A program made the position numbers and the translations under genes. From an uncultured Gammaproteobacteria bacterium (lineage in GTDB: Bacteria; Patescibacteriota; Patescibacteriia; 2-12-FULL-57-11), in contig CAZYLV010000002.1 of assembly GCA_964648865.1 (NCBI GenBank), positions 15,272 to 79,271 of the forward strand: a stretch of 64,000 nucleotides of DNA, in the 5' to 3' direction. Shown in pieces: positions 1,279 to 41,274 of this stretch (the stretch's first letter is position 1; each line of letters begins with the position of its first letter). Below the pieces are notes generated by a model. That model did not search any database and had not been told where the DNA came from. It saw only the letters and a list, made by a program, of their open reading frames with translations.

Positions 1279-1335
1279 TCCTAGGATCGCGTAAGGCCGG
1301 TCGTGTCGCCAAAGGGCGCGTCCCGCCGAACGACA

Positions 1336-1370: not shown

Positions 1371-1407
1371 TACGGAGGGCCCTCGTTTTGGTACGGTGCG
1401 GCGGTCT

Positions 1408-9077: not shown

Positions 9078-9132
9078 TGACGGATGGCCAAGAATGCCCC
9101 ATCATACGCAGGAAATCGTCCTGCCGACAACG

Positions 9133-12364: not shown

Positions 12365-12365
12365 T

Positions 12366-13397: not shown

Positions 13398-13419
13398 TGC
13401 ATTACGCCCCTACGCAGGT

Positions 13420-15206: not shown

Positions 15207-16225
15207 TGCTTCGCCTCCTCTTTGTCACGCCCAAGATCCACGAACGCGACGATGATTTCGCGTTCACCTCGCTGTGGGCGCAGGCCTTTGCGCGCGCCGG
15301 CTTCGCCGTGACCGTGGTGGCGCTCGAAGTGCGCGAACATGCCCTGCCCTTCCCGGTGCGTTCGCTGGGGCGCGAACAGGGATGGCCGACGTGGCGTTCC
15401 TTCATGGAATTCCAGAAGGTCATCCTGACGACGCCGCATGACCGCGTCTTCGTGCACATGAATCCGCGGTGGCTCGCGGCCGGCGCCTGGTACTGGTGGC
15501 TGCGCCGCACGCCGACGTACCTATGGTACACGCACTACACGCGGCCGCTCTCGCTCAAGATCGGCGACAAGGTCGTGAAGCGCATGTTCGCGGCCACCAA
15601 GGACTGTCTCCCGCAGTACGAAGGGGACGCCCGCAAAGTCGTCACCGGGCACGGCATCGACACGGCCTTCTGGGACGTGCCTGAGGTGCCGGAGGCCGAG
15701 CGCGAACCGGCGACGCACCTGCTTGCCGTGCACCGCATCTCGCGCTCCAAGCGCATGGAGATCGCGCTCAAGGCGCTGGCGTTGCTGCCGCCGACGTACA
15801 CCTTGACCCACTACGGCCGGCCGCTCGACCCGCGCCAGGATCCGGAGTATGCCGAGGAGATCCGCGCGCTCGCCGAGAGCCCCGCGCTCAAGGGGCGCGT
15901 GCGCTTCATGGGCTCGCGGCCGATGCCCGAGCTCCGCGAGGTCTATCCGCGCTACCGCGTGGCCATCAACATGGTGCCGGACACCATCGACAAGACCGTG
16001 CTCGAGGCCATGCACTGCGGGCTGACGCCGGTCATCACGCGCGGGCACGCCGCGGCCATCGGGTGGCCGTCCGCGCCGGCCGACGATTCGCCCGAGGCGG
16101 TGGCCGCCTTCATCCGCGCGCTTGCCTCGGCGCCGCGCGAGGAGCTGCGCCGCGTCGTGCGCGAGGGGCATGGGCTGGATGCGCTGGTCGCGAAGCTCGC
16201 CGCCTACATCCGCCCCGGCACCTGA
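15206..16225 (+). CDS. Glycosyltransferase (GT-B fold, GT1/GT4-like)
   Basis: C-terminal LAVHRISRSKRMEIALKAL...VRFMGSRPMPELREVY...EAMHCGLTPVI resembles GT4 C-domains. TGATG overlap with the upstream gene. Confidence 0.55.
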   Translation: MLRLLFVTPKIHERDDDFAFTSLWAQAFARAGFAVTVVALEVREHALPFPVRSLGREQGWPTWRSFMEFQKVILTTPHDRVFVHMNPRWLAAGAWYWWLRRTPTYLWYTHYTRPLSLKIGDKVVKRMFAATKDCLPQYEGDARKVVTGHGIDTAFWDVPEVPEAEREPATHLLAVHRISRSKRMEIALKALALLPPTYTLTHYGRPLDPRQDPEYAEEIRALAESPALKGRVRFMGSRPMPELREVYPRYRVAINMVPDTIDKTVLEAMHCGLTPVITRGHAAAIGWPSAPADDSPEAVAAFIRALASAPREELRRVVREGHGLDALVAKLAAYIRPGT

Positions 16226-16226
16226 T

Positions 16227-18077
16227 ATGTGCGGCATCAACGGCTTCACGTTCTCCGATCCGGAGGCGTTGCGGCGGATGCATGCCGCCACCCGCCACCG
16301 TGGCCCGGACGACGAGGGCTTCCATGAACGGGACGGCGTCTCGTTGGGGCACAACCGGCTGTCCATCATCGACCTCTCGCCGCTCGGACGCCAACCGATG
16401 TCGACGCCCGACGGCCGCTTCACCGTCGTCTTCAACGGCGAGATCTACAATTACCGGGAGCTGCGCACGGAGCTCGAGGCCTCGGGTGTCCGCTTCCGCG
16501 GCGCGTCGGACACCGAGGTCCTGCTCGCGCTCTTCGCCCGCGACGGCGCGTCCTGCCTGGAACGCCTGAACGGCATCTTCGCGTTCGCCGTCTGGGAGCG
16601 CGACTCCCGGACGCTGACGCTCGCGCGCGACCACCTCGGCGTGAAACCGCTCTACTACCACTGGGACGGCGCTCGGCTGGCGTTCTCCTCGGAGATCAAG
16701 GCGCTGCTCACCTTGCCGCATGTCCGGCGCGAGGTCGATCCCGGGGCGCTCTCGCTGTACGTGCGGTTCCTGTACGTCCCCGGGCCGCGCACCATGCTCG
16801 CCGGCATCCGCAAGCTGCAGCCTGGCCACGTGCTCACCCTGCGTGACGCCGAGCTCGCGGTGCGTCCGTACTGGACGCTCGCGGAAGGGGAGCCGTTCGC
16901 GGACCGGGCCGCCGCACGCGCCGCGGTGCGCGAGGGCGTGCTGGCCGCGGTGCGCCGGCAGCTCGTCTCCGATCGACCGCTCGGCGTCTTCCTCTCCGGC
17001 GGGGTCGACTCCACGCTCGTCCTCGCCGCGATGCGCGCGGCGCACGCAGGCGCCATCAAGACCTTCTCCGTCGGCTACGAGGCCACGGACCAGGCCGACA
17101 AGTACAATGCCGACTTCGACGTGGCCGCGCGTACGGCCGCGCGCTTCGGCGCGGAGCATCATCCGATCCGCATCTCCGGCCGCGACGTCGCCGCCGTCTT
17201 CGAGGACGTCGTCCGGCACATGGACGAGCCGATCTCCAACCACGTCCAACCGTCGACCTACCTGCTCGCCAAGTTCGCCAAGCCGCAGATCACCGTGGCG
17301 CTCGGCGGCGACGGCGGCGACGAGCTTTTCGGCGGGTACGACCGCTACTGGTACCACCAGGCGCTCGGCAGGCTCGCGGCGCTGCCGGTGCCGCTGCGGC
17401 ATCCGCGCGTGCTCGCCGGAATCGGGCGGCTGGCGGGCGCACGGTCTCTCGCAGAGAAGGCCGCGACGGCGCCGGGCGTCGACCGCTTCCTGGCGTTCAT
17501 GGGCCAGAAGGACGGCCGCGCGGCGGGGCTGCTGCGCTCCGGCGTCGATCGGCCGGAGACCGTGCGCGCGACGTTCGCGCCGCATTTCGCCGTGCCTTGG
17601 CGCGACGCCGTGAACCAGGTCATGGCCGCGGACGCGCGCAGTTGGCTGCCGGACGAGTCGTTGATGCGCACGGACAAGATGACCATGGCGCACGCCCTCG
17701 AGCAGCGCGTGCCGCTCTTGGACCCGACGCTCGCGGCGCTCGCCTTCCGCATCCCATCGCGCTGGAAGCTCGGCGGCCGTACCTGGGGCAAGCGTATCCT
17801 GCGCGAGGCCTTCCGCGCCGAGCTGCCGGGGTTCGTCCTCGCGCAGAAGAAGCGCGGTTTCTTCTCTCCGGCATCGAAGTGGTTGCGCGGCGACCTGCTG
17901 CCGCTGGCGCGCGAGCTGCTCTCGGACGGCTACGCGGCCGGCAGCGGGGAGTGGCTGGACCTCGCCGCGGCGCGCCGCATCCTCGACGACCACGTGGAGA
18001 AGCGCGCCTACGGCCTCACCCAAGTCTGGGCCGCGATGACGTTCCAGGCGTGGTGGCGGTCGGCCATGGGCCGCTGA
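16227..18077 (+). CDS. Asparagine synthase (glutamine-hydrolysing) family amidotransferase (AsnB/WbpS-like)
   Basis: N-terminal MCGINGF Ntn-glutaminase start, HNRLSIIDLS, and an SGGVDST PP-loop. Confidence 0.85.
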   Translation: MCGINGFTFSDPEALRRMHAATRHRGPDDEGFHERDGVSLGHNRLSIIDLSPLGRQPMSTPDGRFTVVFNGEIYNYRELRTELEASGVRFRGASDTEVLLALFARDGASCLERLNGIFAFAVWERDSRTLTLARDHLGVKPLYYHWDGARLAFSSEIKALLTLPHVRREVDPGALSLYVRFLYVPGPRTMLAGIRKLQPGHVLTLRDAELAVRPYWTLAEGEPFADRAAARAAVREGVLAAVRRQLVSDRPLGVFLSGGVDSTLVLAAMRAAHAGAIKTFSVGYEATDQADKYNADFDVAARTAARFGAEHHPIRISGRDVAAVFEDVVRHMDEPISNHVQPSTYLLAKFAKPQITVALGGDGGDELFGGYDRYWYHQALGRLAALPVPLRHPRVLAGIGRLAGARSLAEKAATAPGVDRFLAFMGQKDGRAAGLLRSGVDRPETVRATFAPHFAVPWRDAVNQVMAADARSWLPDESLMRTDKMTMAHALEQRVPLLDPTLAALAFRIPSRWKLGGRTWGKRILREAFRAELPGFVLAQKKRGFFSPASKWLRGDLLPLARELLSDGYAAGSGEWLDLAAARRILDDHVEKRAYGLTQVWAAMTFQAWWRSAMGR

Positions 18078-18125
18078 GGTGACGCGTCCGCCCGTTTCCG
18101 ATACACTGCGACCCGACTCCAGGAT

Positions 18126-18857
18126 ATGCCCGCATCCGTCCCACCCGCCTTCTCCTATCTGCGCGGCAAAGCGCTGAGCAGCCGCGTCCTTCCGGAGTTC
18201 TTCTCCGTCGACGGGGCGCGCGTGCTCAATGCCGGGTTCGGTGACGGGCCGCAGGCGCTCGTCTATGCCGGCGCCTTCCGCTCGATGCTGGGCGTCGACG
18301 TCAATGCCGAGCGTCTGGAGCGCGCCCGACGCATGCTGGATGCGGCCGGCGTGACGGACGTCGAGCTCATCCAGGGCACGGTCGAGCGCATCCCGCGCCC
18401 GGACAGCAGCTTCGACGCCGTCTTGGCCATCGACATCATCGAGCACGTCGAACGCCCCGACGCCTTCCTGACGGAGATGCGGCGCCTCCTCGTGCCGGGC
18501 GGCCGCATGCTCGTCACCTTCCCCGCCATGCACGACCGCTTCGTGGACACGGTGTCGGCGGTCGGTCGGCTCTTGGGGCGCAAGGGGCACGCGCATCCCG
18601 AGGGGTGGCACCCCGACTACCACCAACGCGAGTTGCCCGTGCGCGTCTGGAGGAAGACGGTGGAGGACGCCGGGTTCCGCTGCACGCGCAGCGGCGCCAC
18701 GACGATGTTCCCGCCGCTCCACCTCTACGGAGTGCCTCGGTTCTGGTTCTCCAACACGATCATCCATGCCATCGACCGTCGGATCGCCGCGCTGCCCGGG
18801 ATCCGGCTGCTGGGACAGACGGTGATGGCGGAATGCGTCAACCAAAAACGGGCCTGA
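18126..18857 (+). CDS. Class I SAM-dependent methyltransferase
   Basis: VLNAGFGDGP motif I and DAVLAIDIIEHV. A decent AGGA upstream. Confidence 0.75.
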   Translation: MPASVPPAFSYLRGKALSSRVLPEFFSVDGARVLNAGFGDGPQALVYAGAFRSMLGVDVNAERLERARRMLDAAGVTDVELIQGTVERIPRPDSSFDAVLAIDIIEHVERPDAFLTEMRRLLVPGGRMLVTFPAMHDRFVDTVSAVGRLLGRKGHAHPEGWHPDYHQRELPVRVWRKTVEDAGFRCTRSGATTMFPPLHLYGVPRFWFSNTIIHAIDRRIAALPGIRLLGQTVMAECVNQKRA

Positions 18858-18877
18858 GCAGGCCCGTTCCCTTTTTG
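18843..18877. terminator. Bidirectional rho-independent terminator between convergent genes
   Basis: CAAAAACGGGCCTG-AG-CAGGCCCGTTCCCTTTTTG: a 9-10 bp stem with an A-run on one side and a T-run on the other. Confidence 0.6.
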
Positions 18878-18880
18878 CGT

Positions 18881-20245
18881 TCACTCGTAGTACTCGCGGC
18901 CGAGGTGCGTGATGAGCGTCTCCCCGCGCATCCAGCGCAGGGTATTCTTGAGTTTCATCGATTGGATGAAGAGGTCGTGCTCGGGATAGAGGTCTGGCGC
19001 GGTCATCGGGCTCTTGAAGAAGAGCGACAACCATTCCTGGATGCCGGACATGCCGGCACGCTTGCCCAGATCCAGGAAGCGGGCGATGTCGAGCAAGAGC
19101 GGCGCGGCGAGGATGGAGTCGCGGCACAGGAAGTTGACCTTGATCTGCATGGGGTACCCCATCCAGCCGACGATGTCGATGTTGTCCCAGCCTTCCTTCT
19201 CGTCGCCGCGCGGCGGGTAGTAGTTGATGCGGACGATGTGCGAGAGCTTGGCGTACAGCTCCGGGTAGAGGGTCGGTTGGAGGATGTAGTCGAGCACCGA
19301 GAGCTTGCTCTTCTCCTTGGTCTCGAAGGAGCCCGGATCGTCGAGCACCATGCCGTCGCGGTTGCCGAGGATGTTGGTGGAGAACCAGCCGCGGACGCCG
19401 AGCATGCGGGTCTTGAGCCCCGGGGCGATGACGGTCTTCATGAGCGTCTGGCCGGTCTTGAGGTCCTTGCCGGCGATCGGCGTGCCGGTCTTTCCGGCAA
19501 GCTCCTGGAGCGCCGGGATGTCGACCGTCAGGTTGGGCGCGCAGTTGGCGTAGGGGACGCCCATGGAGAGCGCGGCGTAGGCATAGACCATCGACGGCGC
19601 GATGTCCGGGTGGTTGTCGCGCAACCCCTGTTCGAAAGCGGCCAGCGTGGCATGCACGTCACCCGGAGCGATGTACGTCTCCGTCGAGCCGGTCCAGAGC
19701 ATCACGCTCCGCGTCGCGCCGGTCTCGGCCTGGACCTTGGCGATGTCGGCCTTGAGCGCCTCCGCGGCTTCCCAGTGCGTGGCGGCCTGTTTGACGTTGC
19801 TGCCGGAGATGTTCTTGACGAACCGCTGGGTGAAGACGGCGGGCATGGGCCGCAACGCGCGCAAGACGTCGGCGACGCCCTCGAGGTCCTGCTCCTTGAG
19901 CACGCCGGCCTTCTTGGCGGCGTCGTAGGCCGAGTCCGGGTAGATGTCCCAGGCGGCGAAGCGCAGGTCCTCGAGCCGCGCCAGCGGGACGAAGTCCTTG
20001 ATGCGCGGCGAACGGTTCTCCATGCGCTTCCCGAGACGCACCGTGCCCATCTCGGTCATCGAACCGATCGGCTGTGCTTGGCCCCGCTTGATCGCTTCGA
20101 CGCCGGCGACCAGCGTCGTGGCGATGGCGCCCAGCCCGACGAGGAAGACGGCGAGCGGACCCTCGGCCGGAGCGATGTTCACCGGCACCTGCGGCTGGGA
20201 CTCCTGGGTGGTCATAGGCTTGGCGATTCCCGCCAATACTCGCAC
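18881..20245 (-). CDS. ino1: myo-Inositol-1-phosphate synthase (MIPS)
   Basis: Conserved MIPS motifs are present: LWTGSTETY (LWTANTERY-like), NILGNRDG (SYNHLGNNDG-like), and a Rossmann GLGAIATT N-terminus. An alternative start lies at 20215. Confidence 0.8.
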   Translation of the reverse strand: MRVLAGIAKPMTTQESQPQVPVNIAPAEGPLAVFLVGLGAIATTLVAGVEAIKRGQAQPIGSMTEMGTVRLGKRMENRSPRIKDFVPLARLEDLRFAAWDIYPDSAYDAAKKAGVLKEQDLEGVADVLRALRPMPAVFTQRFVKNISGSNVKQAATHWEAAEALKADIAKVQAETGATRSVMLWTGSTETYIAPGDVHATLAAFEQGLRDNHPDIAPSMVYAYAALSMGVPYANCAPNLTVDIPALQELAGKTGTPIAGKDLKTGQTLMKTVIAPGLKTRMLGVRGWFSTNILGNRDGMVLDDPGSFETKEKSKLSVLDYILQPTLYPELYAKLSHIVRINYYPPRGDEKEGWDNIDIVGWMGYPMQIKVNFLCRDSILAAPLLLDIARFLDLGKRAGMSGIQEWLSLFFKSPMTAPDLYPEHDLFIQSMKLKNTLRWMRGETLITHLGREYYE

Positions 20246-20307
20246 ACCGCATGGCCGCCGTCAACGCTTGACAGCGGCCTTCCGCCGCGGGAAACTGCCT
20301 GCGTTTT

Positions 20308-21390
20308 ATGGCCACGAAGCGCATCCTGGTACCGGCGTGCGGCGGCAGTCCGGCGCTCAACTACATCCGTTCGCTCCAGGCCGCTCCGGAAGCCATCGAG
20401 ATCGTCGGTGTCGATTGCGACAAGTACGCGTTGGCGAGGTCCCCGCTGGGGGAGAAGCATCTGGTGCCGCCTGCGAAGGACCCCGCCTATCTCCCGGTGC
20501 TCCAGGACGTGATCCGCCAGACGGGCGCGCAGTTCATCCACCTGCAGAACGACACCGAGCTGGCATTCGTCTCGGAGCGGCGTGAGGAGCTGCCGGTCCG
20601 CCACTTCTTCCCGCCCAAGGAGACGGTCCGCGCGTGCATCGACAAGTTCGAGAGCTATCGCCGTTGGACGGCGGTCGGCATCCCCCAGCCGCGCACGCGT
20701 TTCCTCGAGACGCCGGAAGACCTCGATGCCGCGTTCGCGGAGTTCGGCGCGCCGCTGTGGGTCCGCGCGACGGTCGGGGCGGCGGGCAAGGGTTCGCTCA
20801 TGGTCCACGACGTGTCCACCGCGCGGTCGTGGATCGATTTCAACAAAGGCTGGGGGAGCTTCACCGCCGCGGAGTACCTCTCGCCGCAATCCGTCACCTG
20901 GCAGTCGATCTGGAAGGACGGTGCCCTCGTCGTCGCCCAAGGCCGCAAGCGGCTGTACTGGGAATTCGCCAACCGCGCGCCGTCGGGCATCACCGGGCTC
21001 ACCGGCACGGGCGTGACCATGAGCGATCCCACCATCGACGCCATCGCGCAGCGCGCCATCATGGCCATCGACCCCAAGCCGCACGGCATCTTCTCCGTCG
21101 ACCTGACGTACGACCGCGCGGGGGTCCCGAACCCGACCGAGATCAATATCGGCCGCTTCTTCACTACGCACGAGTTCTTCACCCGTGCAGGGCTCAACAT
21201 GCCGTACATCGCCCTGCGGATCGCCTTCGGCGAGGAGCCGACGCTGCCCGCCCAGCGCCTCAACCCGCTGCCGCCGGGCCTGGCCTGGGTGCGCGGTCTC
21301 GACTTCCTGCCGACGCTGACCGATGAGCGGCGCATCGACGCGGCAGAAGGGGAGCTCGCCGCGCGCGTCAAGAATCTCGGTCTCGCATGA
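20308..21390 (+). CDS. ATP-grasp family ligase
   Basis: Size and pattern (PLWVRATVGAAGKGSLMV, FSVDLTYD...NPTEINIGRF) are typical of ATP-grasp enzymes. The substrate is unknown. Confidence 0.45.
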   Translation: MATKRILVPACGGSPALNYIRSLQAAPEAIEIVGVDCDKYALARSPLGEKHLVPPAKDPAYLPVLQDVIRQTGAQFIHLQNDTELAFVSERREELPVRHFFPPKETVRACIDKFESYRRWTAVGIPQPRTRFLETPEDLDAAFAEFGAPLWVRATVGAAGKGSLMVHDVSTARSWIDFNKGWGSFTAAEYLSPQSVTWQSIWKDGALVVAQGRKRLYWEFANRAPSGITGLTGTGVTMSDPTIDAIAQRAIMAIDPKPHGIFSVDLTYDRAGVPNPTEINIGRFFTTHEFFTRAGLNMPYIALRIAFGEEPTLPAQRLNPLPPGLAWVRGLDFLPTLTDERRIDAAEGELAARVKNLGLA

Positions 21391-22940
21391 GTCGGCTTCC
21401 ACGCGACGGCACCGTCTTCCTGACGGGTGCCACGGGGCATCTCGGCCGGGCCGTGTTGCGTCGTTTGGCGCTGGCCGGGACGCCGGTCTGCGCGGTCGGG
21501 AGGCACCGGCCGCCGGCGCTGCCGGGCGTGCGCTTCCTCCAGGCCGACCTCTCTCGGCCGGCGGCGCATCGGCTGTCCGCCGCGTTGCGCGGCGCTTCCG
21601 TGGTCATCCATCTGGCGGCAGCCGTCCCGCAGGGTACGGATGCCGATCCGGATGCGCAGGCGCTTTTCACGACCAACGTCGGCGGTTCCGCGGCGTTGGC
21701 GTCCTCCGTGCCGCGCGGGGCGCACCTCGTCTTCGCCAGCACCATCGAGGTGTACGGCAGGCCGTCGGCGCGGGGGCCGTTGACGGCGACCTCTCCCGTG
21801 GCGCCGACCACGCCGTACGGGTCGTCGAAGCTGCTCGCGGAAGGGACGTTGGCCGCGGCGGCCCGCGCGCGCGGTTTCGGGCTGACCGTCCTGCGGTTGG
21901 CGAGCGTCTACGGACCGGGCGAGACCATCGATCGTGCCACGACGCGATTCCTCCGCGCGGCGGCGACCGGCGGACCGGTGGCGCTGCGCGGGTCGGGACG
22001 GGAGCGGCGCAATCCGCTGTACGTGGAGGACGCGGCACGGGCCGTCCTCGCCGCCGCCGAGCGTCGTCCCGGCGGCGTCGTCCCGGTGGCGGGTGCCGAG
22101 ACGGTGAGCGTGCGGGGACTGGCCGAGGCCGCCGCGCGCGCCGCGGGCCGCGACGCACGTGTCGTCCCCGGCTCCGCGGCCGCCGGCCACGATCTGGTGC
22201 TCGACACGTCCCGGGCCGAACGGCTGCTCGGTTTCCGTCCCGAGGTCGGGCTGGATGCCGGACTCTGGATGTCCGCGGTCGGCATGCGCCGCGCGCCCGT
22301 GGCCGTCTTGGACGTCGATGGCACGCTGTTCGACGTCTCGCCGCGCTACGTGGCGCTGCATCGCGACCTGGCGCGACGGCACGGCTTCCTCCCGCTCGGT
22401 GCGGCGGCCTACTGGAGATTGAAGCGGGCCCGCGTCCCGGAGGAGGCCATCCTGCGCCGGCTGACGCGCGATGCCGCGGCGCGCAAGCGGTACCTGCGTG
22501 ACCGTCAGGCGCATATCGAGGACCGCGCGTACCTCGCGCACGACCGGCCGCTCCCGGGAGCCGTCGCGGCGTTGCGACGGCTCTCCCGCGTCGCTCCGGT
22601 GGTCCTGCTCTCGCTGCGCAACGACGCGCGGGCCCTGCGCTGGCAGCTGCGCCGCAGCGGCATGTCGCCGTCCGTCGCCCGTACGCTCACCGCGCCCGCC
22701 GGCGCCGATCCCGTCTCCGCGAAGATCGCGCTGCTCCGCTCGTCGCCGGGTCCTGCCGCGCTCGTGGCAGGGGACACCGAGGTCGACGGCGGGCTCGCCG
22801 CGGCCTACGGCGTGCCGTTCTTCGCCGTCACCTCCGGCATCCGGGAGCGCGCCGCGCTGCTCGCGGCCCGGCCCGTCGCCGTCTCCCGGACCATCGACGC
22901 ATTGCCGCGCGGGATGCGGCTGCTCCGGCTCGCCCTATGA
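21387..22940 (+). CDS. Fusion protein: NAD-dependent epimerase/dehydratase (SDR) N-domain + HAD-family hydrolase C-domain
   Basis: N-terminal FLTGATGHLGRAVLRRL...YGSSKLLAE. C-terminal VAVLDVDGTLFD HAD motif I. Confidence 0.65.
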   Translation: MSRLPRDGTVFLTGATGHLGRAVLRRLALAGTPVCAVGRHRPPALPGVRFLQADLSRPAAHRLSAALRGASVVIHLAAAVPQGTDADPDAQALFTTNVGGSAALASSVPRGAHLVFASTIEVYGRPSARGPLTATSPVAPTTPYGSSKLLAEGTLAAAARARGFGLTVLRLASVYGPGETIDRATTRFLRAAATGGPVALRGSGRERRNPLYVEDAARAVLAAAERRPGGVVPVAGAETVSVRGLAEAAARAAGRDARVVPGSAAAGHDLVLDTSRAERLLGFRPEVGLDAGLWMSAVGMRRAPVAVLDVDGTLFDVSPRYVALHRDLARRHGFLPLGAAAYWRLKRARVPEEAILRRLTRDAAARKRYLRDRQAHIEDRAYLAHDRPLPGAVAALRRLSRVAPVVLLSLRNDARALRWQLRRSGMSPSVARTLTAPAGADPVSAKIALLRSSPGPAALVAGDTEVDGGLAAAYGVPFFAVTSGIRERAALLAARPVAVSRTIDALPRGMRLLRLAL

Positions 22941-24767: not shown

Positions 24768-24802
24768 CGGACCGCCTCTCCGGCCGTATCCTTCTTCGGA
24801 CT

Positions 24803-25822
24803 ATGGATACGGTCCCCGTCGCCCTCATCGGGTACGGCTACTGGGGGAAAGTCCTCGCGCGCGTCATCCGGTCCTCACCGGACGCGCGTCTCCTCGTCGT
24901 CGCCGAGACCGACCCGGAGCGGCGCGCGGCGGCGGCGCGCTTGCCCGGCGTCGAGACCGCGACCGACGCCGAGACCGCGATCCGCGATCCGCGCGTCGCC
25001 GCGGTCTTCGTCGCCACGCCCGTCTCCACCCACGCCGCGCTGGTGCGCGCGGCGCTCGGCGCGGGTAAGGACGTCTTCGTGGAGAAGCCCATGGCCGCGA
25101 CGCTCGCCGAAGCGGAGGAGCTTGCCCGCCTCGCGACGTCCGGCGGCCAGGTGCTGATGGTCGATCACCCCTTCCTGTTCACCGGCGCCGTCCGCAAGAT
25201 CCGGCAGCTCGTCGAGAAGGGCGAGCTCGGGCGTCTGCAGTACTTCGATTCCGAGCGCATCAACCTGGGTCTGCTGCGCTCGGACGTGAACGTGCTGTGG
25301 GATCTGGCGCCGCACGACCTCTCCATCCTGCAGTACCTGCTCGAGGAATCCCCGCGCGGAGTGCGCGCCGTGGCCTCCACGCACACCCCGCATCCGCGTC
25401 CGGAACCCGGCGGCGAGATCGCGCACCTCTTCCTCGACTACGCCAGCGGCGTGGCCGCACACGTCGCCGTGAGCTGGCTCTCGCCGGTCAAGATCCGCAA
25501 GCTCATCCTCGGCGGCGACCGCAAGATGGTGCTGTTCGACGACATCTCGCCCTCCGAGAAGGTCAAGGTCTATGACCACGGCGTGGACACCGATCCGGCG
25601 GCGGCCACGCCGTTCCGGCCGCTCTACCGCAGCGGCGACGTCCTCGTCCCCAAGGTCGATGACCGCGAGGCCATGCAGCTGGCCGTCGACCACTTCGTCT
25701 CCTGCGTGCGCACCCGCGCCACGCCGCTCACCGACGGCCGCTTCGGCGCCGCGGTCGTGCGCGTGCTCGAGGCCAGCGACCGCTCGCTGCGCGAGGGCGG
25801 CGCACGCATCGCCCTGCCATGA
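24803..25822 (+). CDS. Gfo/Idh/MocA-family NAD(P)-dependent oxidoreductase (WbpB-like sugar 3-dehydrogenase candidate)
   Basis: VALIGYGYWGK...VFVEKPMA. An alternative start lies at 24764. Confidence 0.75.
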   Translation: MDTVPVALIGYGYWGKVLARVIRSSPDARLLVVAETDPERRAAAARLPGVETATDAETAIRDPRVAAVFVATPVSTHAALVRAALGAGKDVFVEKPMAATLAEAEELARLATSGGQVLMVDHPFLFTGAVRKIRQLVEKGELGRLQYFDSERINLGLLRSDVNVLWDLAPHDLSILQYLLEESPRGVRAVASTHTPHPRPEPGGEIAHLFLDYASGVAAHVAVSWLSPVKIRKLILGGDRKMVLFDDISPSEKVKVYDHGVDTDPAAATPFRPLYRSGDVLVPKVDDREAMQLAVDHFVSCVRTRATPLTDGRFGAAVVRVLEASDRSLREGGARIALP

Positions 25823-26634
25823 AGATCCCGGCATCCGTCACCATCCTGACACGCAACTCGGCGGCCACGCTGGAGCGGTGCCTGGCGTCCGTCCAGGCCT
25901 TCGACGATATCGTCGTGCTCGACGGCAACAGCACGGACGGGACGCGTGCCATCGCCGAGCGGTATGGCGCACGCGTCCTGCCGCAGACGGACAGCGCGGA
26001 ACCGGCCGTGCGCATCACCGACTTCACCGAGGTCCGGCAGAAGTCCTTCGACGCCGCCAAGCACGACTGGGTGTACATGATCGATTCCGACGAGTGGGCC
26101 TCGCCGGAACAGGTCGAGGCGGTGCGGGGGCTCGTCGCGGCGGACCGCACGGACGAGGTCTACCTCTTCCGCAAGCTGGCCGTGCTGGGAGAGCGGGTCG
26201 TCCGGCACGCGTACTACTACCCGGACTACTCCCTGCGCATGCTCGCCAAGAGCGGCGGTGCCCACTGGGTCGCCGGCCGACGGGTCCACGAGCGGATCGT
26301 CTTCCCGGAGCGCGTCCGCCAGGTGCGCCGGGACGAGCCGGTCTACTCGCTGCAGCCGCCGTATCGGGACGCGCTGCGCAAGGACGAGTATTACCTGCGG
26401 CTCGCGCTCGACCGCTACCGAGGCGTGCCGCGACGGCGCATGGTGCGCAACGCGGCAATCAACGTCGCCAAGGGCTGCCTCATCCTCGGTCGCGTCGCCG
26501 CCGTGCATCTCCGGCACGGGTTCCGTGATACCATGCCCCCCATGCAGCACCTGCGCTATCCGCGTTACCATTGGCGTCTGGCCTGGCTGCTGGCGCGCCG
26601 CGCCCTTTCCATGCGACCGTATGCACACGCATGA
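25819..26634 (+). CDS. GT2-family glycosyltransferase
   Basis: VTILTRNSAATLERCL...VVLDGNSTDGT...DSDE. Confidence 0.7.
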   Translation: MKIPASVTILTRNSAATLERCLASVQAFDDIVVLDGNSTDGTRAIAERYGARVLPQTDSAEPAVRITDFTEVRQKSFDAAKHDWVYMIDSDEWASPEQVEAVRGLVAADRTDEVYLFRKLAVLGERVVRHAYYYPDYSLRMLAKSGGAHWVAGRRVHERIVFPERVRQVRRDEPVYSLQPPYRDALRKDEYYLRLALDRYRGVPRRRMVRNAAINVAKGCLILGRVAAVHLRHGFRDTMPPMQHLRYPRYHWRLAWLLARRALSMRPYAHA

Positions 26635-35788: not shown

Positions 35789-35789
35789 T

Positions 35790-37402: not shown

Positions 37403-37417
37403 TTTTCCACAGAGAGG

Positions 37418-37446
37418 AGACCCTGCCGCTTGGCAGGGTCTTTTGG
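37418..37446 (+). terminator. Rho-independent terminator
   Basis: AGACCCTGCC-GCTT-GGCAGGGTCT stem-loop followed by TTTTGG. Confidence 0.6.
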
Positions 37447-37450
37447 CTAT

Positions 37451-37488: not shown

Positions 37489-38256
37489 ATGACTCCTCGG
37501 ACTGCCATTATCGTCGCTGCGGGCATGGGGAACCGCCTGCGGCCGCTGACGGAGGATCGTCCCAAGTGCCTGATTGAAGTCGGCGGTCAGACCATGCTGG
37601 AGCGCGCCGTCCGCATCCTGCGTGGCGTCGGCGTTCCAGAATTGGCCATCATCCGCGGCTATCGCGGCGGGCAGATCGCGGTCGACGGCGCGCGGTACTT
37701 CGAGAACCCTGAGTACGCGCACAACAACATCCTCCATTCTGCCTTCTGCGCCGAAGAGGCCATGGCCGGAGGCTTCCTGCTGTCCTACAGCGACATCGTC
37801 TACCGGCCCTCTGTGGCAGAAGCGGCGTGCGCGACGGACGAAGACATCGCCGTGGTCGTCGATCGCGATTGGAAGCGCGCCTACGAGGGGCGTGACCTGC
37901 GCATGGAGGATGAAGCCGAGGTGGTCCTCGACGCCGATGGGGCGATCAGGAAGATCGGCAAGGGGGCGGTCTCGCCGGAGGAGGCGACCGGCGAGTTCAT
38001 CGGCATGGCGACGTTCTCCGGGCGCGGCGCGGACGTCCTGCGCGCGGAGTTCCATCGCCTGCTCGAGGCCTACCGCGGCCGCTTCGATGAGCCGTTCCAG
38101 CGGGCCGCGTCCTTCCGTAAGGCATACCTGACGGACATGCTCCAGGAACTCGTCGACCGCGGGGTGCGCGTCGGCGTGGTCCCTATCCACGGCGGTTGGC
38201 GGGAAATCGACACGCCGCAGGACCTGGAGCGCGCCAGCCGATTGTTCGCTTCATGA
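37489..38256 (+). CDS. MobA-like/LicC-like nucleotidyltransferase (sugar-/alcohol-phosphate cytidylyltransferase candidate)
   Basis: AIIVAAGMGNRLRPLTEDRPKCLIEVGG N-terminal NTP-transferase signature. About 255 aa. Confidence 0.7.
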   Translation: MTPRTAIIVAAGMGNRLRPLTEDRPKCLIEVGGQTMLERAVRILRGVGVPELAIIRGYRGGQIAVDGARYFENPEYAHNNILHSAFCAEEAMAGGFLLSYSDIVYRPSVAEAACATDEDIAVVVDRDWKRAYEGRDLRMEDEAEVVLDADGAIRKIGKGAVSPEEATGEFIGMATFSGRGADVLRAEFHRLLEAYRGRFDEPFQRAASFRKAYLTDMLQELVDRGVRVGVVPIHGGWREIDTPQDLERASRLFAS

Positions 38257-38260: not shown

Positions 38261-39610
38261 ATGACGGACCTCCGCAGGAAACGGGAAGGTGCGCTGCTGC
38301 TCGCCGTCCTCAACGACCTCAAGCGCAACGACGAGGTCGCGGCGCAGGAGCTCGGCGTCCCGCTCGAGGAGCTGCGTTCGTGGCTGCGCGGCGATGCCGA
38401 GATGCCCCGCGCGGCGAAGGAACGCGCCGCCGCCATCTGGCCGGTCAACATCCGGGACCTCGAGGTGGTCGAGGATGACGCGCCCGACGGGGTCCGCATC
38501 ATGCGCGCCGCGGAGTCGGAGGCGAGCGAGCGCATCCTCTCGCGCGCCGGCACGCCCTACTACGCCTATCGCGACACGGCCATGTCACGTACCGCGGCGT
38601 TCCGTCCCGAGTGGATCGCGGAGCTGGTCTCCGTCGACGGCGCCGACGCGGACGACCCGGCCGTCCAGTGGAACAACGGCCATCTCCTGCACCAGTTCAC
38701 CTACTTCATCGGTCCCGTCAATTTCTATTATGTCGAGGACGGGCAACGACGCGTCGCCGCCATGGAGACCGGCGATACCATGTACATCACGCCGTTCGTG
38801 CCGCATTCCTTCACGACGCGTAGGACCCCCGAAGGGACACGCGGGCTGATCCTGGCGCTGACCTTCGGCGGGCGGCTCATCGGCGACGCCCATCAGGAGC
38901 TCTCCGTGCTCGGCGAGCGACGCGCCCGGGCGTTGCGCCTGGGGGATGCCGTGGGCGACCAAGGGACGGCCGAGCTGCTGCGGCGCCGCATGCGCGACGC
39001 GCTCCACGCGCAGGATTCCTTGGCGGCCGCGAGCGGCGTGCCGCAGGACCGCCTCGCCGCTCTCCTCTCCGGGGCGCGCGCCTCGCCGGACGAGTTGCGG
39101 TCGCTGGCGGCGGCGCTGGGCGTCAATGTCCGCGACCTCCTGGGGCACGATGCCTCGGAGCCTGCCGTCATCATCGAGAGGCGCGACGCCGGGGAGGAGC
39201 GGGGATCCTCCACGGCCACGGTCCGCCCCCTGGCCGGTACCAGTCGGATGCCGGACATGCGGGCCTTCGAGCTGACGCTCCCGCCCGGCGATGGGACGCA
39301 CGGCCTCGAGACGGACCTGCACCAGTACGGCTACGTGCTCGCCGGGAAGGTCGCCCTGACCTGGGACGCCGACGGCACGGAGCGGCGCGAGGTGTTGGCG
39401 CAGGATGACTCCTTCACCATGAAGCCCGGTACGCCGCATCGCCTCATGGCCACGGACGGGCCGGCGCGGCTCCTGCTCCTGCGCATCGGCGGGGCGCTCT
39501 CCGGTGATGCGCGGCTCGAACTCTCGGCCATCGACGCCGGCGGCATCGGTCGGGCCGTCTCGGAATCGACGCAGTGGTACACGCCGTCCGGTTCGCGCGG
39601 CGTCTCATGA
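38261..39610 (+). CDS. Bicupin non-heme-iron oxygenase of the HEPD/MPnS/HppE family (tandem HTH-like + cupin repeats); MPnS-like candidate
   Basis: 449 aa with two repeats of a helix-turn-helix-like segment plus a cupin barrel. The first cupin has a putative metal site H141-x3-Q145...H182. It sits inside the Ppm-Ppd-ADH phosphonate module. Confidence 0.55.
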   Translation: MTDLRRKREGALLLAVLNDLKRNDEVAAQELGVPLEELRSWLRGDAEMPRAAKERAAAIWPVNIRDLEVVEDDAPDGVRIMRAAESEASERILSRAGTPYYAYRDTAMSRTAAFRPEWIAELVSVDGADADDPAVQWNNGHLLHQFTYFIGPVNFYYVEDGQRRVAAMETGDTMYITPFVPHSFTTRRTPEGTRGLILALTFGGRLIGDAHQELSVLGERRARALRLGDAVGDQGTAELLRRRMRDALHAQDSLAAASGVPQDRLAALLSGARASPDELRSLAAALGVNVRDLLGHDASEPAVIIERRDAGEERGSSTATVRPLAGTSRMPDMRAFELTLPPGDGTHGLETDLHQYGYVLAGKVALTWDADGTERREVLAQDDSFTMKPGTPHRLMATDGPARLLLLRIGGALSGDARLELSAIDAGGIGRAVSESTQWYTPSGSRGVS

Positions 39611-39629
39611 ACCGACCTGATCCAACCAT

Positions 39630-41273: not shown

Positions 41274-41274
41274 T

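What the first reader, a model, noticed from the sequence alone, without database searches (positions are those of the whole stretch)
18881..20245. Inositol-phosphate branch: MIPS inside a glycan locus plus CDP-alcohol phosphotransferase::HAD fusion (47467-48936) and spare cytidylyltransferases
A myo-inositol-1-phosphate synthase is encoded antisense to the surrounding operon, with its own bidirectional terminator and divergent promoter region. Elsewhere in the locus are stand-alone MobA-like NTP transferases (37489-38256; 59470-60216) and a membrane CDP-alcohol phosphotransferase fused to a HAD phosphatase. These are the same three activities (IPCT, DIPPS, DIPP phosphatase) that make di-myo-inositol phosphate, or, in actinobacteria, phosphatidylinositol via a PI-phosphate intermediate. 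In a glycan locus this suggests inositol-phosphate, or another CDP-activated alcohol or phosphonate, is transferred onto a lipid or glycan acceptor and then dephosphorylated by the fused HAD domain.
Basis: inference. Interest (0 to 1): 0.6.

Follow-up and report, generated by a model that had tools for sequence, protein, structure and literature searches.

The report
Inositol synthase in a glycan locus
A large cell-surface sugar-polymer locus really does encode an inositol-phosphate synthase and a rare membrane enzyme fused to a phosphatase, but nothing shows that these parts work together as one inositol-phosphate pathway.

Summary
All four genes exist as described. 18881-20215(-) is a genuine myo-inositol-phosphate synthase, closest to the crystallised Bacteroides enzyme. 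It ends at a bidirectional terminator hairpin. A relative (74% identical MIPS) keeps it inside the same glycosyltransferase block, whereas 0 of 80 other loci with this MIPS type carry homologues of this window's genes. A locus-specific role is therefore supported.

47467-48936 is a CDP-alcohol phosphotransferase fused to a cytoplasmic HAD domain. It belongs to a small uncharacterised clade with an altered catalytic motif (GxxxExxxH instead of GxxxDxxxD).

Gene fusions and neighbourhoods tie this membrane domain, the HAD domain and the cytidylyltransferase at 59470-60216 into one functional unit. The other cytidylyltransferase (37489-38256) belongs to a phosphonate cassette.

The clade's nearest characterised relatives use inositol phosphate, and a published but unconfirmed Bacteroidetes inositol cluster has the same four parts. 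However, the clade's constant neighbours are two TagF-like transferases and nonulosonic-acid genes, never MIPS within 10 kb.

Coupling to inositol is plausible (about 0.4) but unproven. I class it as a new variant of a known kind, of moderate interest.

The parts
18881..20215 (-). myo-inositol-3-phosphate synthase (MIPS), 444 aa.
   Evidence: PF07994 300.8 bits and PF01658 111.3 bits. PDB 7nwr, the Bacteroides thetaiotaomicron MIPS, E 1.3e-155 over residues 23-443. Equivalents of the four classical MIPS motifs are present: AWDI, LWTGSTETY, NCAPNLTVDIPAL, STNILGNRDG. The database copy P0011 is 100% identical and 444 aa.
18847..18868 (.). bidirectional intrinsic-terminator-like hairpin between the convergent methyltransferase gene and MIPS
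   Evidence: 9-bp stem with 6 G-C pairs, A5 tract upstream and T5 tract downstream.
20216..20307 (.). 92-bp divergent intergenic region between MIPS and the ATP-grasp gene
   Evidence: Read directly. It contains TTGACA at 20269-20274. No full sigma-70 match was found.
47467..48228 (+). membrane CDP-alcohol phosphotransferase domain (aa 1-254) of the fusion, with the variant motif D88xxD91GxxAR96 ... G113xxxE117xxxH121D122
   Evidence: PF01066 27.8 bits. Motif seen. The model shows a juxtamembrane helix plus six long helices. The best structural match for this half is AF2299 (4o6n).
48250..48936 (+). C-terminal HAD-IA (C1-capped) phosphatase-type domain of the fusion
   Evidence: HAD_2 64.5 bits. 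Motifs: FDFDGTL 269-275, SSNN 368-371, K399, GDSFHD 422-427. Foldseek finds phosphoglycolate phosphatase, AlnB and beta-phosphoglucomutase folds.
59470..60216 (+). NTP2: an IPCT/PntC/LicC-type cytidylyltransferase, the conserved partner of the HAD and membrane domains
   Evidence: NF041135 IPCT domain 86.2 bits over the whole domain. PDB 2xme 50 bits, 4mnd 49, PntC 6pd1 48. Homologues lie next to or fused with fusion-type HAD domains in L005, L013-L019, L077 and L017, and directly follow the fusion gene in L001. Its ATG overlaps the upstream stop codon as ATGA.
37489..38256 (+). NTP1: a LicC-like nucleotidyltransferase of the phosphonate cassette
   Evidence: PF12804 50.3 bits. PDB LicC 1jyk 52 bits. 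A 48% identical homologue sits between the phosphodiesterase-family pair and the Fe-ADH gene in L001.
46057..47463 (+). TagF-like (Glyphos_transf) transferase immediately upstream of the fusion. It is a constant neighbour of the clade.
   Evidence: PF04464 26.4 bits and BFO_1060 family 48.7 bits. Homologues (32-57% identity) lie beside the membrane gene in L001, L002, L005, L012, L091 and L093.
50937..52391 (+). second TagF-like paralogue
   Evidence: It matches the same region of the loci as 46057-47463. It is conserved in L001, L002, L012, L020, L091 and L093.
16122..18077 (+). asparagine-synthase-type amidotransferase, a conserved neighbour of MIPS
   Evidence: PF00733 275.9 bits. A 54% identical homologue lies downstream of MIPS in L008.
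25819..26634 (+). GT2 glycosyltransferase, a conserved neighbour of MIPS
   Evidence: PF00535 57.2 bits. A 48% identical homologue starts 4 nt after MIPS in L008.
21387..22940 (+). SDR::HAD fusion in the operon divergent from MIPS. It is an alternative candidate for an inositol-phosphate phosphatase.
   Evidence: Epimerase 133.2 bits plus Hydrolase (HAD) 31.6 bits at aa 306-467. The function is not tested.
38261..43496 (+). phosphonate core: a methylphosphonate-synthase-like gene, PEP mutase fused to an NTP transferase, phosphonopyruvate decarboxylase and Fe-ADH. It is a possible alternative source of a CMP-activated donor.

Best explanation
The window is a composite Wzx/Wzy-type surface-glycan locus built from at least three conserved cassettes.

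The cassettes:
- Cassette A (about 7971-26634) is a glycosyltransferase block that carries its own MIPS. MIPS makes L-myo-inositol-1-phosphate from glucose-6-phosphate for use in this locus.
- A phosphonate cassette (about 32448-43496) most likely makes methylphosphonate.
- Cassette B (about 43732-60216) holds the flippase, methyltransferases, two TagF-like transferases, nonulosonic-acid genes, the CDP-alcohol phosphotransferase::HAD fusion and NTP2.

The proposed module: NTP2, the membrane domain and the HAD domain form one three-part module working at the cytoplasmic face of the membrane.
1. NTP2 activates a small phospho-alcohol with CTP.
2. The six-helix membrane domain transfers a phospho-head-group from the CDP-activated donor to an alcohol, releasing CMP.
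3. The tethered HAD domain handles a phosphomonoester of the same pathway.

My preferred reading for this organism is that inositol phosphate from MIPS is a substrate of the module. It could enter as CDP-inositol made by NTP2. Alternatively it could be the phosphorylated acceptor, whose remaining phosphate the HAD domain then removes, as in the DIPP, PIP and PGP pathways. Either way an inositol-phosphate phosphodiester would end up on the glycan or on its lipid primer.

Shown here: the identity of the genes, the conserved position of MIPS, the functional linkage of the three parts, the variant motif and the topology.

Inferred only: the substrate, the order of the HAD step and the coupling to MIPS.
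For: MIPS identity: E 1.3e-155 to the crystallised Bacteroides MIPS.

MIPS position: in L008 a 74% identical MIPS lies in one operon with homologues of 7971-13397, the GT2 at 25819-26634 and the amidotransferase at 16122-18077. None of 80 other loci with this MIPS type from metagenomes holds homologues of the window's genes, apart from one weak GT2 match.

Linkage of the three parts:
- Membrane::HAD fusions in 7 protein clusters of the clade, plus further fusions with a canonical motif.
- NTP::HAD fusions (P0202, P0313, L017).
- A membrane::NTP fusion (P0262).
- HAD, NTP2-like and CDP-alcohol-transferase genes in one operon in Myxococcota MAGs.
- An NTP2-like domain encoded directly after the fusion gene in L001.

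Hints towards inositol:
- The best NCBIfam matches of the membrane domain are archaetidylinositol-P synthase (34.9 bits), PIP synthase (27.1) and IPCT/DIPPS. The best structure is AF2299.
- In 18 of the 80 genome loci kept in the scan with the fusion profile, the CDP-alcohol-transferase match directly precedes a MIPS gene.
- NTP2 matches the IPCT domain over its full length (86 bits; 2xme and 4mnd).
- MIPS is the only dedicated polyol-phosphate-forming enzyme recognised in the window.
- The published Bacteroidetes cluster MIPS + NTP + CDP-alcohol transferase + HAD, with the last two fused in Prevotella veroralis (PMC9246714).

Topology: the model gives a juxtamembrane helix, six helices and a basic cytoplasmic loop. 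This places the HAD domain in the cytoplasm beside the active site.
Against: - MIPS and the fusion are 27 kb apart, in cassettes that occur separately elsewhere. L008 shows MIPS without the module in 13 kb. L001, L002, L005, L011, L012, L020, L091 and L093 show the clade without MIPS within 10 kb.
- No MIPS among the best 120 homologues sits on the 43.9-kb contig of the closest long relative. This rests on comparing contig lengths.
- The constant neighbours of the clade are two TagF-like genes and a CTP_transf_3 gene, often with NeuB or NeuC. These are not inositol genes.
- Stand-alone members of the clade lack HAD and NTP_transf_3 within 10 kb.
- All matches to inositol-specific families are far below the curated cut-offs (34.9 against 180; 27.1 against 170; 86 against 580). 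For the membrane domain they cover only the N-terminal motif region.
- NTP2 scores the same against the phosphonate cytidylyltransferase PntC (48 bits). CpgD, whose best structural match is IPCT, uses phosphoglycerate.
- In the window NTP2 is translationally coupled to a UDP-sulfoquinovose-synthase-like gene and is followed by CysDN.
- The HAD fold is also that of beta-phosphoglucomutases. An APH-kinase::membrane fusion exists (P0245). The HAD domain could therefore act before, not after, the transfer.
- The catalytic aspartate D4 is replaced by histidine, so the chemistry may differ from that of characterised family members.
Confidence: 0.4

Rival explanations
1. There are two independent modules. 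MIPS serves only cassette A: inositol or inositol phosphate is used by the neighbouring glycosyltransferases, for example as a glycosyl acceptor in the manner of MshA, with a separate phosphatase such as the HAD half of 21387-22940. The NTP2 + phosphotransferase::HAD unit belongs to the TagF-like/nonulosonic-acid cassette B and works on another phospho-alcohol or sugar phosphate. Examples would be glycerol phosphate or another polyol phosphate for a teichoic- or teichulosonic-acid-like polymer, or a lipid primer for it.
For: - Cassette A with MIPS occurs without the module in L008.
- Cassette B occurs without MIPS within 10 kb in eight loci.
- TagF-like pairs and CTP_transf_3 are the invariant neighbours of the clade.
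- L001 fuses the NTP2-like domain to a NeuC-type 2-epimerase.
- The window has no TagD- or TarI-type enzyme to supply the TagF-like proteins, other than NTP1 and NTP2.
- Myxococcota operons of HAD, NTP and CDP-alcohol transferase lack MIPS nearby.
Against: - The flanks examined (10 kb) are shorter than the 27 kb that separates MIPS from the fusion in the window itself. Absence nearby is therefore weak evidence.
- No glycosyltransferase in the window resembles MshA more than it resembles generic GT4 families.
- The only known way to put a polyol phosphate into a glycan is through a CDP-polyol. The only IPCT-like enzyme in the locus is NTP2.
Confidence: 0.35
2. The fusion is the phosphonate head-group transferase. 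One of the LicC/PntC-type cytidylyltransferases makes a CMP-phosphonate, either CMP-methylphosphonate or CMP-2-hydroxyethylphosphonate. The membrane domain transfers the phosphonyl group to a phosphorylated polyol (glycerol-3-phosphate or inositol phosphate) or to a lipid or glycan hydroxyl. The HAD domain then removes the remaining phosphate.
For: - PEP mutase, phosphonopyruvate decarboxylase, Fe-ADH and a methylphosphonate-synthase-like gene lie 4-9 kb upstream.
- The two closest long relatives of the fusion (L001, L002) also sit beside phosphonate genes.
- NTP2 matches PntC (6pd1) at 48 bits.
- CDP-OH transferases are a recognised partner of phosphonate genes in the 'Burkholderiales_CDP-OH' phosphonolipid group (PMC8942020).
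Against: - Members of the clade in L005, L091 and L093 have no phosphonate genes within 10 kb.
- The phosphonate cassette carries its own conserved candidates for transfer: a 607-aa protein of unknown function plus two phosphodiesterase-family proteins and NTP1, conserved as a block in L001 and L002.
Confidence: 0.15
3. MIPS is simply the organism's general inositol supply, for lipids or solutes, and happens to lie inside the glycan locus.
For: - This MIPS type is the common one in Acidobacteriota, Gemmatimonadota, Bacteroidota and others, with more than 8000 homologues at E<1e-100.
- A 70% identical homologue sits in an unrelated, housekeeping-like context.
- The gene is a separate transcription unit with its own terminator.
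Against: - Its position inside the same glycosyltransferase block is conserved in L008, there co-directional and 4 nt from the next gene.
- 0 of 80 other loci with this MIPS type carry homologues of this window's genes.
- Where this MIPS type has a recognisable partner, it is an adjacent CDP-alcohol transferase: 8 of 80 metagenome loci and 18 genome loci. That partner is missing next to it here.
Confidence: 0.08
4. There is an aminocyclitol branch. MIPS, the HAD half of 21387-22940, the GFO/IDH/MocA oxidoreductase (24764-25822), the DegT aminotransferase (23658-24767), the ATP-grasp ligase (20308-21390) and a methyltransferase would together make an N-acylated scyllo-inosamine-type residue.
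For: These genes form the operon divergent from MIPS. The oxidoreductase matches inositol 2-dehydrogenase IolG at 103.7 bits.
Against: - The same oxidoreductase matches UDP-GlcNAc 3-dehydrogenase better (125.7 bits). The aminotransferase matches nucleotide-sugar aminotransferases such as PseC at 276.7 bits. This is the ordinary sugar pair.
- L008 keeps MIPS but lacks these genes between MIPS and the GT2.
Confidence: 0.05

Closest known systems
Di-myo-inositol-phosphate pathway of hyperthermophiles (IPCT, DIPPS and a DIPP phosphatase; Archaeoglobus, Thermotoga)
   Same: It has the same three enzyme types and the same logic: a cytidylyltransferase, a six-helix CDP-alcohol phosphotransferase, then dephosphorylation. 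NTP2's best family and structure matches are IPCT. The membrane domain's best structure is AF2299. Pairwise gene fusions occur in both systems.
   Different: - Here the phosphatase, not the cytidylyltransferase, is fused to the membrane domain.
- The signature is GxxxExxxH, not GxxxDxxxD.
- Scores are far below the equivalog cut-offs.
- The genes sit in a glycan locus with a flippase and TagF-like transferases, not in a solute pathway. MIPS is 27 kb away.
Putative 'Bacteroides vulgatus-like' alternative inositol-lipid cluster (Heaver et al. 2022, PMC9246714)
   Same: It has the same four parts: MIPS, an NTP transferase, a CDP-alcohol phosphatidyltransferase and a HAD hydrolase. The last two are fused in Prevotella veroralis. 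The window MIPS is very close to the Bacteroides MIPS structure 7nwr. Canonical-motif fusions that are 31-37% identical to the window protein over both domains lie next to an NTP transferase and an LPG_synthase_TM gene, an accessory also noted in that paper.
   Different: - That cluster is compact and adjacent to MIPS. Here the parts are dispersed over 40 kb of a glycan locus.
- The Bacteroides enzyme was found with the canonical pattern DX2DGX2AR...GX3DX3D, which the window protein does not satisfy.
- That pathway is itself functionally unconfirmed.
- Orthology to the BVU proteins could not be tested.
Bacterial phosphatidylinositol-phosphate route (PIP synthase PgsA1/BT_1523 plus PIP phosphatase BT_1525)
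   Same: A CDP-alcohol phosphotransferase uses inositol phosphate as acceptor and is followed by an obligatory phosphatase step. That logic explains a transferase::phosphatase fusion.
   Different: - The PIP synthase model scores 27.1 bits against a cut-off of 170.
- PIPS-like genes next to this MIPS type carry the motif DxxDGxVAR..FGAFYDSTLDR, unlike the window clade.
- The known PIP phosphatase is PgpA-like, not HAD.
CDP-polyol pathways of teichoic acids and capsules (TagD/TarI-type cytidylyltransferase plus TagF/TagB-type transferases)
   Same: Two TagF-like genes flank the fusion and are invariant neighbours of the clade. A WecB-type UDP-GlcNAc 2-epimerase is present (328.5 bits against a cut-off of 210). 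A cytidylyltransferase supplies a CDP- or CMP-activated donor.
   Different: There is no TagD or TarI orthologue. The TagF-like matches are weak (26.4 bits). An integral CDP-alcohol phosphotransferase is not part of the classical pathway as I know it (my own knowledge, not tested here).
Phosphonate tailoring (PntC cytidylyltransferases; 'CDP-OH' phosphonolipid clusters; PMC6697681, PMC8942020)
   Same: LicC/PntC-type nucleotidyltransferases lie next to, or are fused to, PEP mutase. A CDP-OH transferase is a known partner of phosphonate genes.
   Different: The described group uses aminoethylphosphonate and makes lipids. Here there is no AEP transaminase. Instead there is an Fe-ADH and a methylphosphonate-synthase-like enzyme, in a glycan context.

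Membership tests
myo-inositol-1-phosphate synthase (EC 5.5.1.4) | Both Pfam domains (NAD_binding_5 and Inos-1-P_synth) above the gathering score | tested here: met
   300.8 bits (cut-off 25) and 111.3 bits (cut-off 27).
myo-inositol-1-phosphate synthase (EC 5.5.1.4) | Full-length close similarity to an experimentally characterised MIPS | tested here: met
   PDB 7nwr (B. thetaiotaomicron MIPS, genetically and structurally characterised) E 1.3e-155 over residues 23-443. Yeast 1jkf E 5.5e-49.
myo-inositol-1-phosphate synthase (EC 5.5.1.4) | The four conserved MIPS sequence blocks (GWDI, LWTANTERY, NGSPQNTFVPGL, SYNHLGNNDG in the eukaryotic enzyme; recalled from the literature) | tested here: met
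   The equivalents AWDI (88), LWTGSTETY (173), NCAPNLTVDIPAL (224) and STNILGNRDG (279) align with the yeast blocks.
Actinobacterial housekeeping Ino1 (mycothiol/PI type, TIGR03450) | Score above the equivalog cut-off | tested here: not met
   29.3 bits against 638. M. tuberculosis 1gr0 gives only E 6.2e-5.
CDP-alcohol phosphotransferase (PF01066) | Pfam model above the gathering score | tested here: met
   27.8 bits against 22, aa 47-110 only.
CDP-alcohol phosphotransferase (PF01066) | First half of the signature, DxxDGxxAR | tested here: met
   D88-A-V-D91-G-E-L-A-R96, invariant in the clade.
CDP-alcohol phosphotransferase (PF01066) | Second half of the signature, GxxxDxxxD (D3 binds the metal, D4 is the catalytic base) | tested here: not met
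   G113-VFV-E117-PVS-H121-D122, so D3 is Glu and D4 is His. This holds in every clade member whose motif was retrieved; the distant P0010 has Asp at D3 and keeps the His. Relatives outside the clade keep GxxxDxxxD.
CDP-alcohol phosphotransferase (PF01066) | Six transmembrane helices after a juxtamembrane helix, with the active site at the cytoplasmic face | tested here: met
   The model (pLDDT 89) has helices at 25-41, 48-68, 71-101, 111-140, 143-176, 193-216 and 220-254, with basic loops on the motif side. Foldseek matches AF2299, 4o6n. The topology is inferred from the model and is not experimental.
Inositol-phosphate-specific CDP-alcohol phosphotransferases (AIP synthase NF040950, PIP synthase NF045883, IPCT/DIPPS NF041135) | Score above the equivalog cut-off | tested here: not met
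   34.9 against 180, 27.1 against 170 and 18.6 against 580. The matches cover only aa 28-106. They are nevertheless the best-scoring membrane families.
Inositol-phosphate-specific CDP-alcohol phosphotransferases (AIP synthase NF040950, PIP synthase NF045883, IPCT/DIPPS NF041135) | Genomic adjacency to MIPS | tested here: not met
   MIPS is 27 kb away in the window. No MIPS lies within 10 kb in eight other loci of the clade. In 18 of the 80 genome loci kept in the scan, the canonical-motif relative is adjacent to MIPS.
CTP:inositol-1-phosphate cytidylyltransferase (IPCT), for NTP2 | Specific similarity to IPCT above that to other cytidylyltransferases | tested here: inconclusive
   The IPCT domain of NF041135 is the best NCBIfam match (86.2 bits, but the cut-off of 580 is for the bifunctional protein). 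In the PDB, IPCT 2xme (50.4 bits) is about equal to PntC 6pd1 (47.9), and both exceed LicC (36.9).
CTP:inositol-1-phosphate cytidylyltransferase (IPCT), for NTP2 | Activity with CTP and inositol-1-phosphate | not testable with these tools
   This needs an enzyme assay. CpgD shows that IPCT-like folds can use other substrates.
HAD phosphatase superfamily | Four catalytic motifs (DxDxT, S/T, K, GDxxxD) and a Rossmannoid core with a cap | tested here: met
   FDFDGTL 269-275, SSNN 368-371, K399 and GDSFHD 422-427. C1-capped HAD-IA fold, TM-score (normalised to the target) up to 0.78 to phosphatases and beta-phosphoglucomutase.
B. vulgatus-like alternative inositol cluster (Heaver 2022) | MIPS, NTP transferase, CDP-alcohol transferase and HAD clustered together | tested here: inconclusive
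   All four are present in the window but dispersed: 18881, 47467 (both transferase and HAD) and 59470. They lie in different conserved cassettes.
B. vulgatus-like alternative inositol cluster (Heaver 2022) | Orthology to BVU_RS13095, BVU_RS13105 and BVU_RS13115 | not testable with these tools
   Those sequences could not be fetched. The published search pattern requires GX3DX3D, which the window protein lacks.

The most novel reading that the evidence does not exclude
The variant CDP-alcohol phosphotransferases (DGELAR...G-x3-E-P-x-S-H-D) are a new functional class of membrane phosphotransferase dedicated to surface glycans. In this organism the HAD-fused member would install an inositol-phosphate phosphodiester, fed by the locus-encoded MIPS. 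Alternatively it would couple inositol phosphate to a CMP-activated methylphosphonate. The acceptor would be a lipid-linked glycan or a new lipid primer for the TagF-like enzymes. As far as I know (not checked against the literature), no bacterial Wzx/Wzy glycan carrying both inositol phosphate and a C-P compound has been described.
Probability: 0.15. Interest if true: 0.75.

Novelty: new variant of a known kind. Interest (0 to 1): 0.5.

Why it matters
Inositol phosphate is a rare building block in bacteria. Known uses are membrane lipids, mycothiol and heat-protective solutes. A MIPS kept inside a glycosyltransferase operon points to an inositol-containing surface polymer.

The phosphotransferase clade next to TagF-like enzymes is uncharacterised and has lost the canonical catalytic aspartate. 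Working out its donor and acceptor would fill a gap in how non-sugar head-groups (polyol phosphates, phosphonates) are attached to glycans.

It would also test the still unconfirmed 'alternative' inositol pathway proposed for gut Bacteroidetes.

If the two modules turn out to be unrelated, the finding reduces to an ordinary though very large glycan locus with a well-annotated MIPS.

Tried and rejected
1. Actinobacterial reading. I first assumed a Glycomyces/Stackebrandtia-type phosphonoglycan locus. Yu et al. 2014 could not be read. No named actinobacterial homologue of the fusion was found. The best matches of the glycosyltransferases and the amidotransferase are PEP-CTERM/XrtA-type families. 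The host taxon therefore stays unknown, and I make no actinobacterial argument.

2. Source organism. The cluster look-up gave no names. The genome scan did not find the source genome; the best hit was a 46% identical Gammaproteobacteria MAG.

3. Co-occurrence by sample. The closest MIPS (P0012) and the closest fusion (P0002) come from different samples on 1.5-2 kb contigs, which is uninformative.

4. Metagenome scan with MIPS. I used them as a comparison set rather than as close relatives.

5. MshA-like glycosyltransferases. The GT4 proteins match MshA no better than they match generic GT4 families.

6. The named Gemmatimonadaceae hit P0014. It is a 64% identical sequence with a duplicated C-terminal segment and gives no taxonomic clue.

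7. Pneumococcal CDP-2-glycerol genes (Gtp2/Gtp3) as a precedent for a HAD + NTP pair. The paper available did not give the protein families, so I do not use it.

8. Relative orientation of the two domains in the model. pTM is 0.62 and the linker (254-260) has low confidence, so I draw no conclusion about active-site proximity.

Full report
**What is in the window**

The sequence is about 70% G+C. Nearly all genes are on the plus strand. Domain scans of about 50 genes show one very large surface-glycan locus. It contains:
- three tandem Wzy_C-TPR proteins;
- many GT4 and GT2 glycosyltransferases;
- at least nine SAM methyltransferases;
- a Wzx-type flippase;
- sugar-nucleotide enzymes (SDR dehydratases and epimerases, a DegT aminotransferase, a formyltransferase, three UDP-GlcNAc 2-epimerases);
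- NeuB and CTP_transf_3;
- a UDP-sulfoquinovose-synthase-like gene followed by CysDN;
- a complete early phosphonate pathway: PEP mutase fused to a nucleotidyltransferase, phosphonopyruvate decarboxylase, Fe-ADH and a methylphosphonate-synthase-like dioxygenase.

The host taxon could not be established. The best family matches of several glycosyltransferases and of the amidotransferase are PEP-CTERM/XrtA-type. This argues for caution about an actinobacterial origin.

- MIPS. The ORF 18881-20245(-) is a MIPS (PF07994 300.8 bits, PF01658 111.3 bits). The identical database protein is 444 aa, so the start is most likely the ATG at 20215.
- Terminator. Between its stop codon and the stop of the convergent methyltransferase lies a 9-bp G+C-rich hairpin (18847-18868) with an A5 tract before it and a T5 tract after it. 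This is a plausible bidirectional terminator. On the other side, 92 bp separate MIPS from a divergent ATP-grasp gene.
- Fusion. The ORF 47467-48936 combines a CDP-alcohol phosphotransferase domain with a HAD domain.
- NTP transferases. 37489-38256 (NTP1) and 59470-60216 (NTP2) are MobA-like/LicC-like nucleotidyltransferases.

**The MIPS**

It aligns over its whole length with the crystallised Bacteroides thetaiotaomicron MIPS (7nwr, E 1.3e-155). It also aligns with the yeast and Archaeoglobus enzymes, with the classical conserved blocks in place. It is not the actinobacterial Ino1 type (TIGR03450 29 bits against a cut-off of 638). It belongs to a very large and highly conserved bacterial family, with more than 8000 proteins at E<1e-100. 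Taken alone, it could therefore be an organism's general MIPS.

Two results argue for a locus-specific role.

1. In a metagenomic relative (L008, MIPS 74% identical) the gene lies co-directionally in one tight operon with homologues of window genes. Upstream are the GT4, the SDR (67% identical), the double GT4 (55%) and further GT4 domains. Downstream are the GT2 of 25819-26634 (48%, starting 4 nt after MIPS) and the amidotransferase of 16122-18077 (54%).
2. I used 80 other loci with this MIPS type from metagenomes as a comparison set. None contains homologues of the window's genes apart from one weak GT2 match. Eight have a PIP-synthase-like CDP-alcohol transferase directly upstream. A 70% identical MIPS sits in an unrelated context.

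A MIPS inside this glycosyltransferase block is thus unusual and conserved.

**The fusion protein**

A word-indexed search of 5.8 billion proteins found only ten relatives. A profile search extended this to about 45 clusters. Seven are fused proteins of 462-491 aa and the rest are stand-alone membrane proteins of about 250 aa. Beyond them the score drops sharply to generic family members. An exhaustive HMMER search added a few more fusions and showed that most other hits match only the HAD half.

The clade has an invariant first half of the family signature (D88xxD91GxxAR96). The second half reads G113-x3-E117-x3-H121-D122. The third aspartate is glutamate, and the fourth, which is the catalytic base in characterised enzymes, is histidine. 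Relatives outside the clade keep GxxxDxxxD.

The AlphaFold model is confident (mean pLDDT 89). It shows a juxtamembrane helix, six long helices and a C1-capped HAD-IA domain. The basic loops place the HAD domain in the cytoplasm on the same side as the signature. By structure, the membrane half is closest to AF2299. The HAD half is closest to phosphoglycolate-phosphatase-like enzymes and beta-phosphoglucomutase.

By sequence, the best-scoring curated families for the membrane half are archaetidylinositol-phosphate synthase, PIP synthase and IPCT/DIPPS. All are far below their cut-offs and match only the N-terminal motif region.

**The three parts form one unit**

Fusions are found in several pairings among relatives:
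- membrane::HAD (the clade itself, plus canonical-motif proteins P0186, P0187, P0191 and P0209);
- NTP::HAD (P0202 and P0313; also a 512-aa ORF in L017);
- membrane::NTP (P0262);
- an APH-type kinase fused to the membrane domain (P0245).

Neighbourhoods agree:
- NTP2 homologues (38-46% identical) lie directly after fusion-type HAD genes in L005, L013-L019 and L077. In the Myxococcota loci a canonical CDP-alcohol transferase follows.
- In L001 the gene after the fusion begins with an NTP2-like domain.
- Canonical-motif fusions sit next to an NTP transferase and an LPG_synthase_TM gene.

NTP1 is different. Its homologue in L001 lies between the two phosphodiesterase-family genes and the Fe-ADH gene, so it belongs to the phosphonate cassette.

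**Is the unit an inositol-phosphate branch?**

In favour:
- the weak but consistent family matches to inositol-phosphate enzymes;
- in 18 of the 80 genome loci kept in the scan with the fusion profile, the CDP-alcohol-transferase match directly precedes a MIPS of the window's type;
- the published, still unconfirmed Bacteroidetes cluster of MIPS + NTP transferase + CDP-alcohol transferase + HAD, with the last two fused in Prevotella veroralis (PMC9246714);
- MIPS is the only dedicated polyol-phosphate-forming enzyme recognised in the locus, and a CDP-polyol is the only known route for putting a polyol phosphate into a glycan.

Against:
- The conserved neighbourhood of the clade is a cassette of methyltransferase, flippase, two TagF-like transferases, the membrane protein and a CTP_transf_3 gene. 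NeuC, NeuB, NTP2-like and HAD genes are variably present. This cassette was seen in eight independent loci, none with MIPS within 10 kb. Two of the loci, like the window, adjoin phosphonate genes.
- The cassette with MIPS occurs on its own in L008.
- NTP2 is as similar to the phosphonate cytidylyltransferase PntC as it is to IPCT. CpgD, an enzyme whose best structural match is IPCT, uses phosphoglycerate (PMC12275187).
- In the window NTP2 overlaps the stop codon of a sulfoquinovose-synthase-like gene.
- The HAD fold and the kinase-fused variant allow a reading in which the HAD domain prepares the phospho-alcohol before activation, rather than dephosphorylating the product.

One caveat weakens the negative evidence. 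The 10-kb flanks are shorter than the 27 kb that separates MIPS from the fusion in the window itself.

**Verdict**

The transferase is not a housekeeping PgsA or PIP synthase, and the MIPS is not merely a mycothiol/PI gene.
- The positive claim, that MIPS, a cytidylyltransferase and the fusion form one inositol-phosphate branch, is not demonstrated.
- I commit to a CDP-alcohol (Kennedy/DIP-type) head-group module, with inositol phosphate as the leading candidate substrate in this organism, at a confidence of about 0.4.
- Close behind, at 0.35, is the reading that the MIPS-bearing glycosyltransferase cassette and the TagF-like/nonulosonic-acid cassette work independently.
- The variant active-site motif and the strict association with TagF-like enzymes make the phosphotransferase clade a new variant of a known enzyme kind. 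It is worth an enzyme assay.

Noticed in passing
window 38261-39610 (+): This HTH-cupin dioxygenase is closer to methylphosphonate synthase (6b9s, 342 bits) than to hydroxyethylphosphonate dioxygenase (6b9r, 298 bits). It has GHLLHQ, VNFYY and YITPFVPH at the positions I recall as MPnS markers (the Gln ligand, Phe162 and Ile184). The locus may therefore make methylphosphonate esters in a high-G+C bacterium.
   Followed up: partly
window 32448-37181 (+); L001 1240-5931; L002 2904-7524: A 607-aa protein with no Pfam match plus two type I phosphodiesterase-family proteins form a block that is conserved next to phosphonate genes in two relatives. They are candidates for attaching the phosphonate to the glycan.
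   Followed up: partly
window 58313-62398 (+): A UDP-sulfoquinovose-synthase-like gene (464 bits against a cut-off of 575, full length) is followed by NTP2 and then CysD/CysN (sulfate adenylyltransferase). This suggests a sulfo-sugar or sulfation branch in the same glycan locus.
   Followed up: partly
window 1303-7981 (+): Three tandem paralogues of about 730-760 aa, each an O-antigen-ligase/polymerase-like Wzy_C domain followed by TPR repeats.
   Followed up: no
window about 14136-15206 (+) and about 52400-53107 (+): Two genes lie in apparent gaps. One is a third UDP-GlcNAc 2-epimerase-like gene (MKHIALVAGARPNFMK...), hidden inside the long ORF 13668-15206. The other is an additional class I methyltransferase-like ORF.
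   Followed up: partly
L017 3333-16304 (deltaproteobacterial MAG): This locus has three CDP-alcohol phosphotransferases, a stand-alone NTP_transf_3, an ORF whose N-terminal half matches the fusion's HAD domain (tblastn, 38% identity; no Pfam HAD hit) fused to NTP_transf_3, a class V aminotransferase, a flippase and an AsnB-like amidotransferase. It appears to encode several head-group modules in one polysaccharide locus.
   Followed up: partly
L016 8655-12496 (Myxococcales MAG): A compact operon of GFO/IDH/MocA oxidoreductase, HAD, NTP_transf_3 and CDP-alcohol phosphotransferase lies outside any glycan locus. A GFO/IDH/MocA gene also directly follows the stand-alone clade members in L091 and L093.
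   Followed up: no
P0245, P0262: Clade relatives fused to other partners: an APH-type kinase N-terminal to the membrane domain (P0245) and an NTP transferase C-terminal to it (P0262).
   Followed up: partly
L091 15723-20771; L093 14739-19933: Downstream of the TagF-like/CDP-alcohol-transferase cassette lies a conserved run of NeuB, CYTH, CotH, VTC and DUF4956 genes. This is an unusual pairing of polyphosphate-related and CotH-kinase genes with a glycan cassette. CotH genes also follow the cassette in L005.
   Followed up: no
window 63118-63960 (-): An EamA-like membrane protein. Its only NCBIfam match is 'phosphonate utilization associated putative membrane protein' (45.6 bits, below the cut-off of 288).
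   Followed up: no
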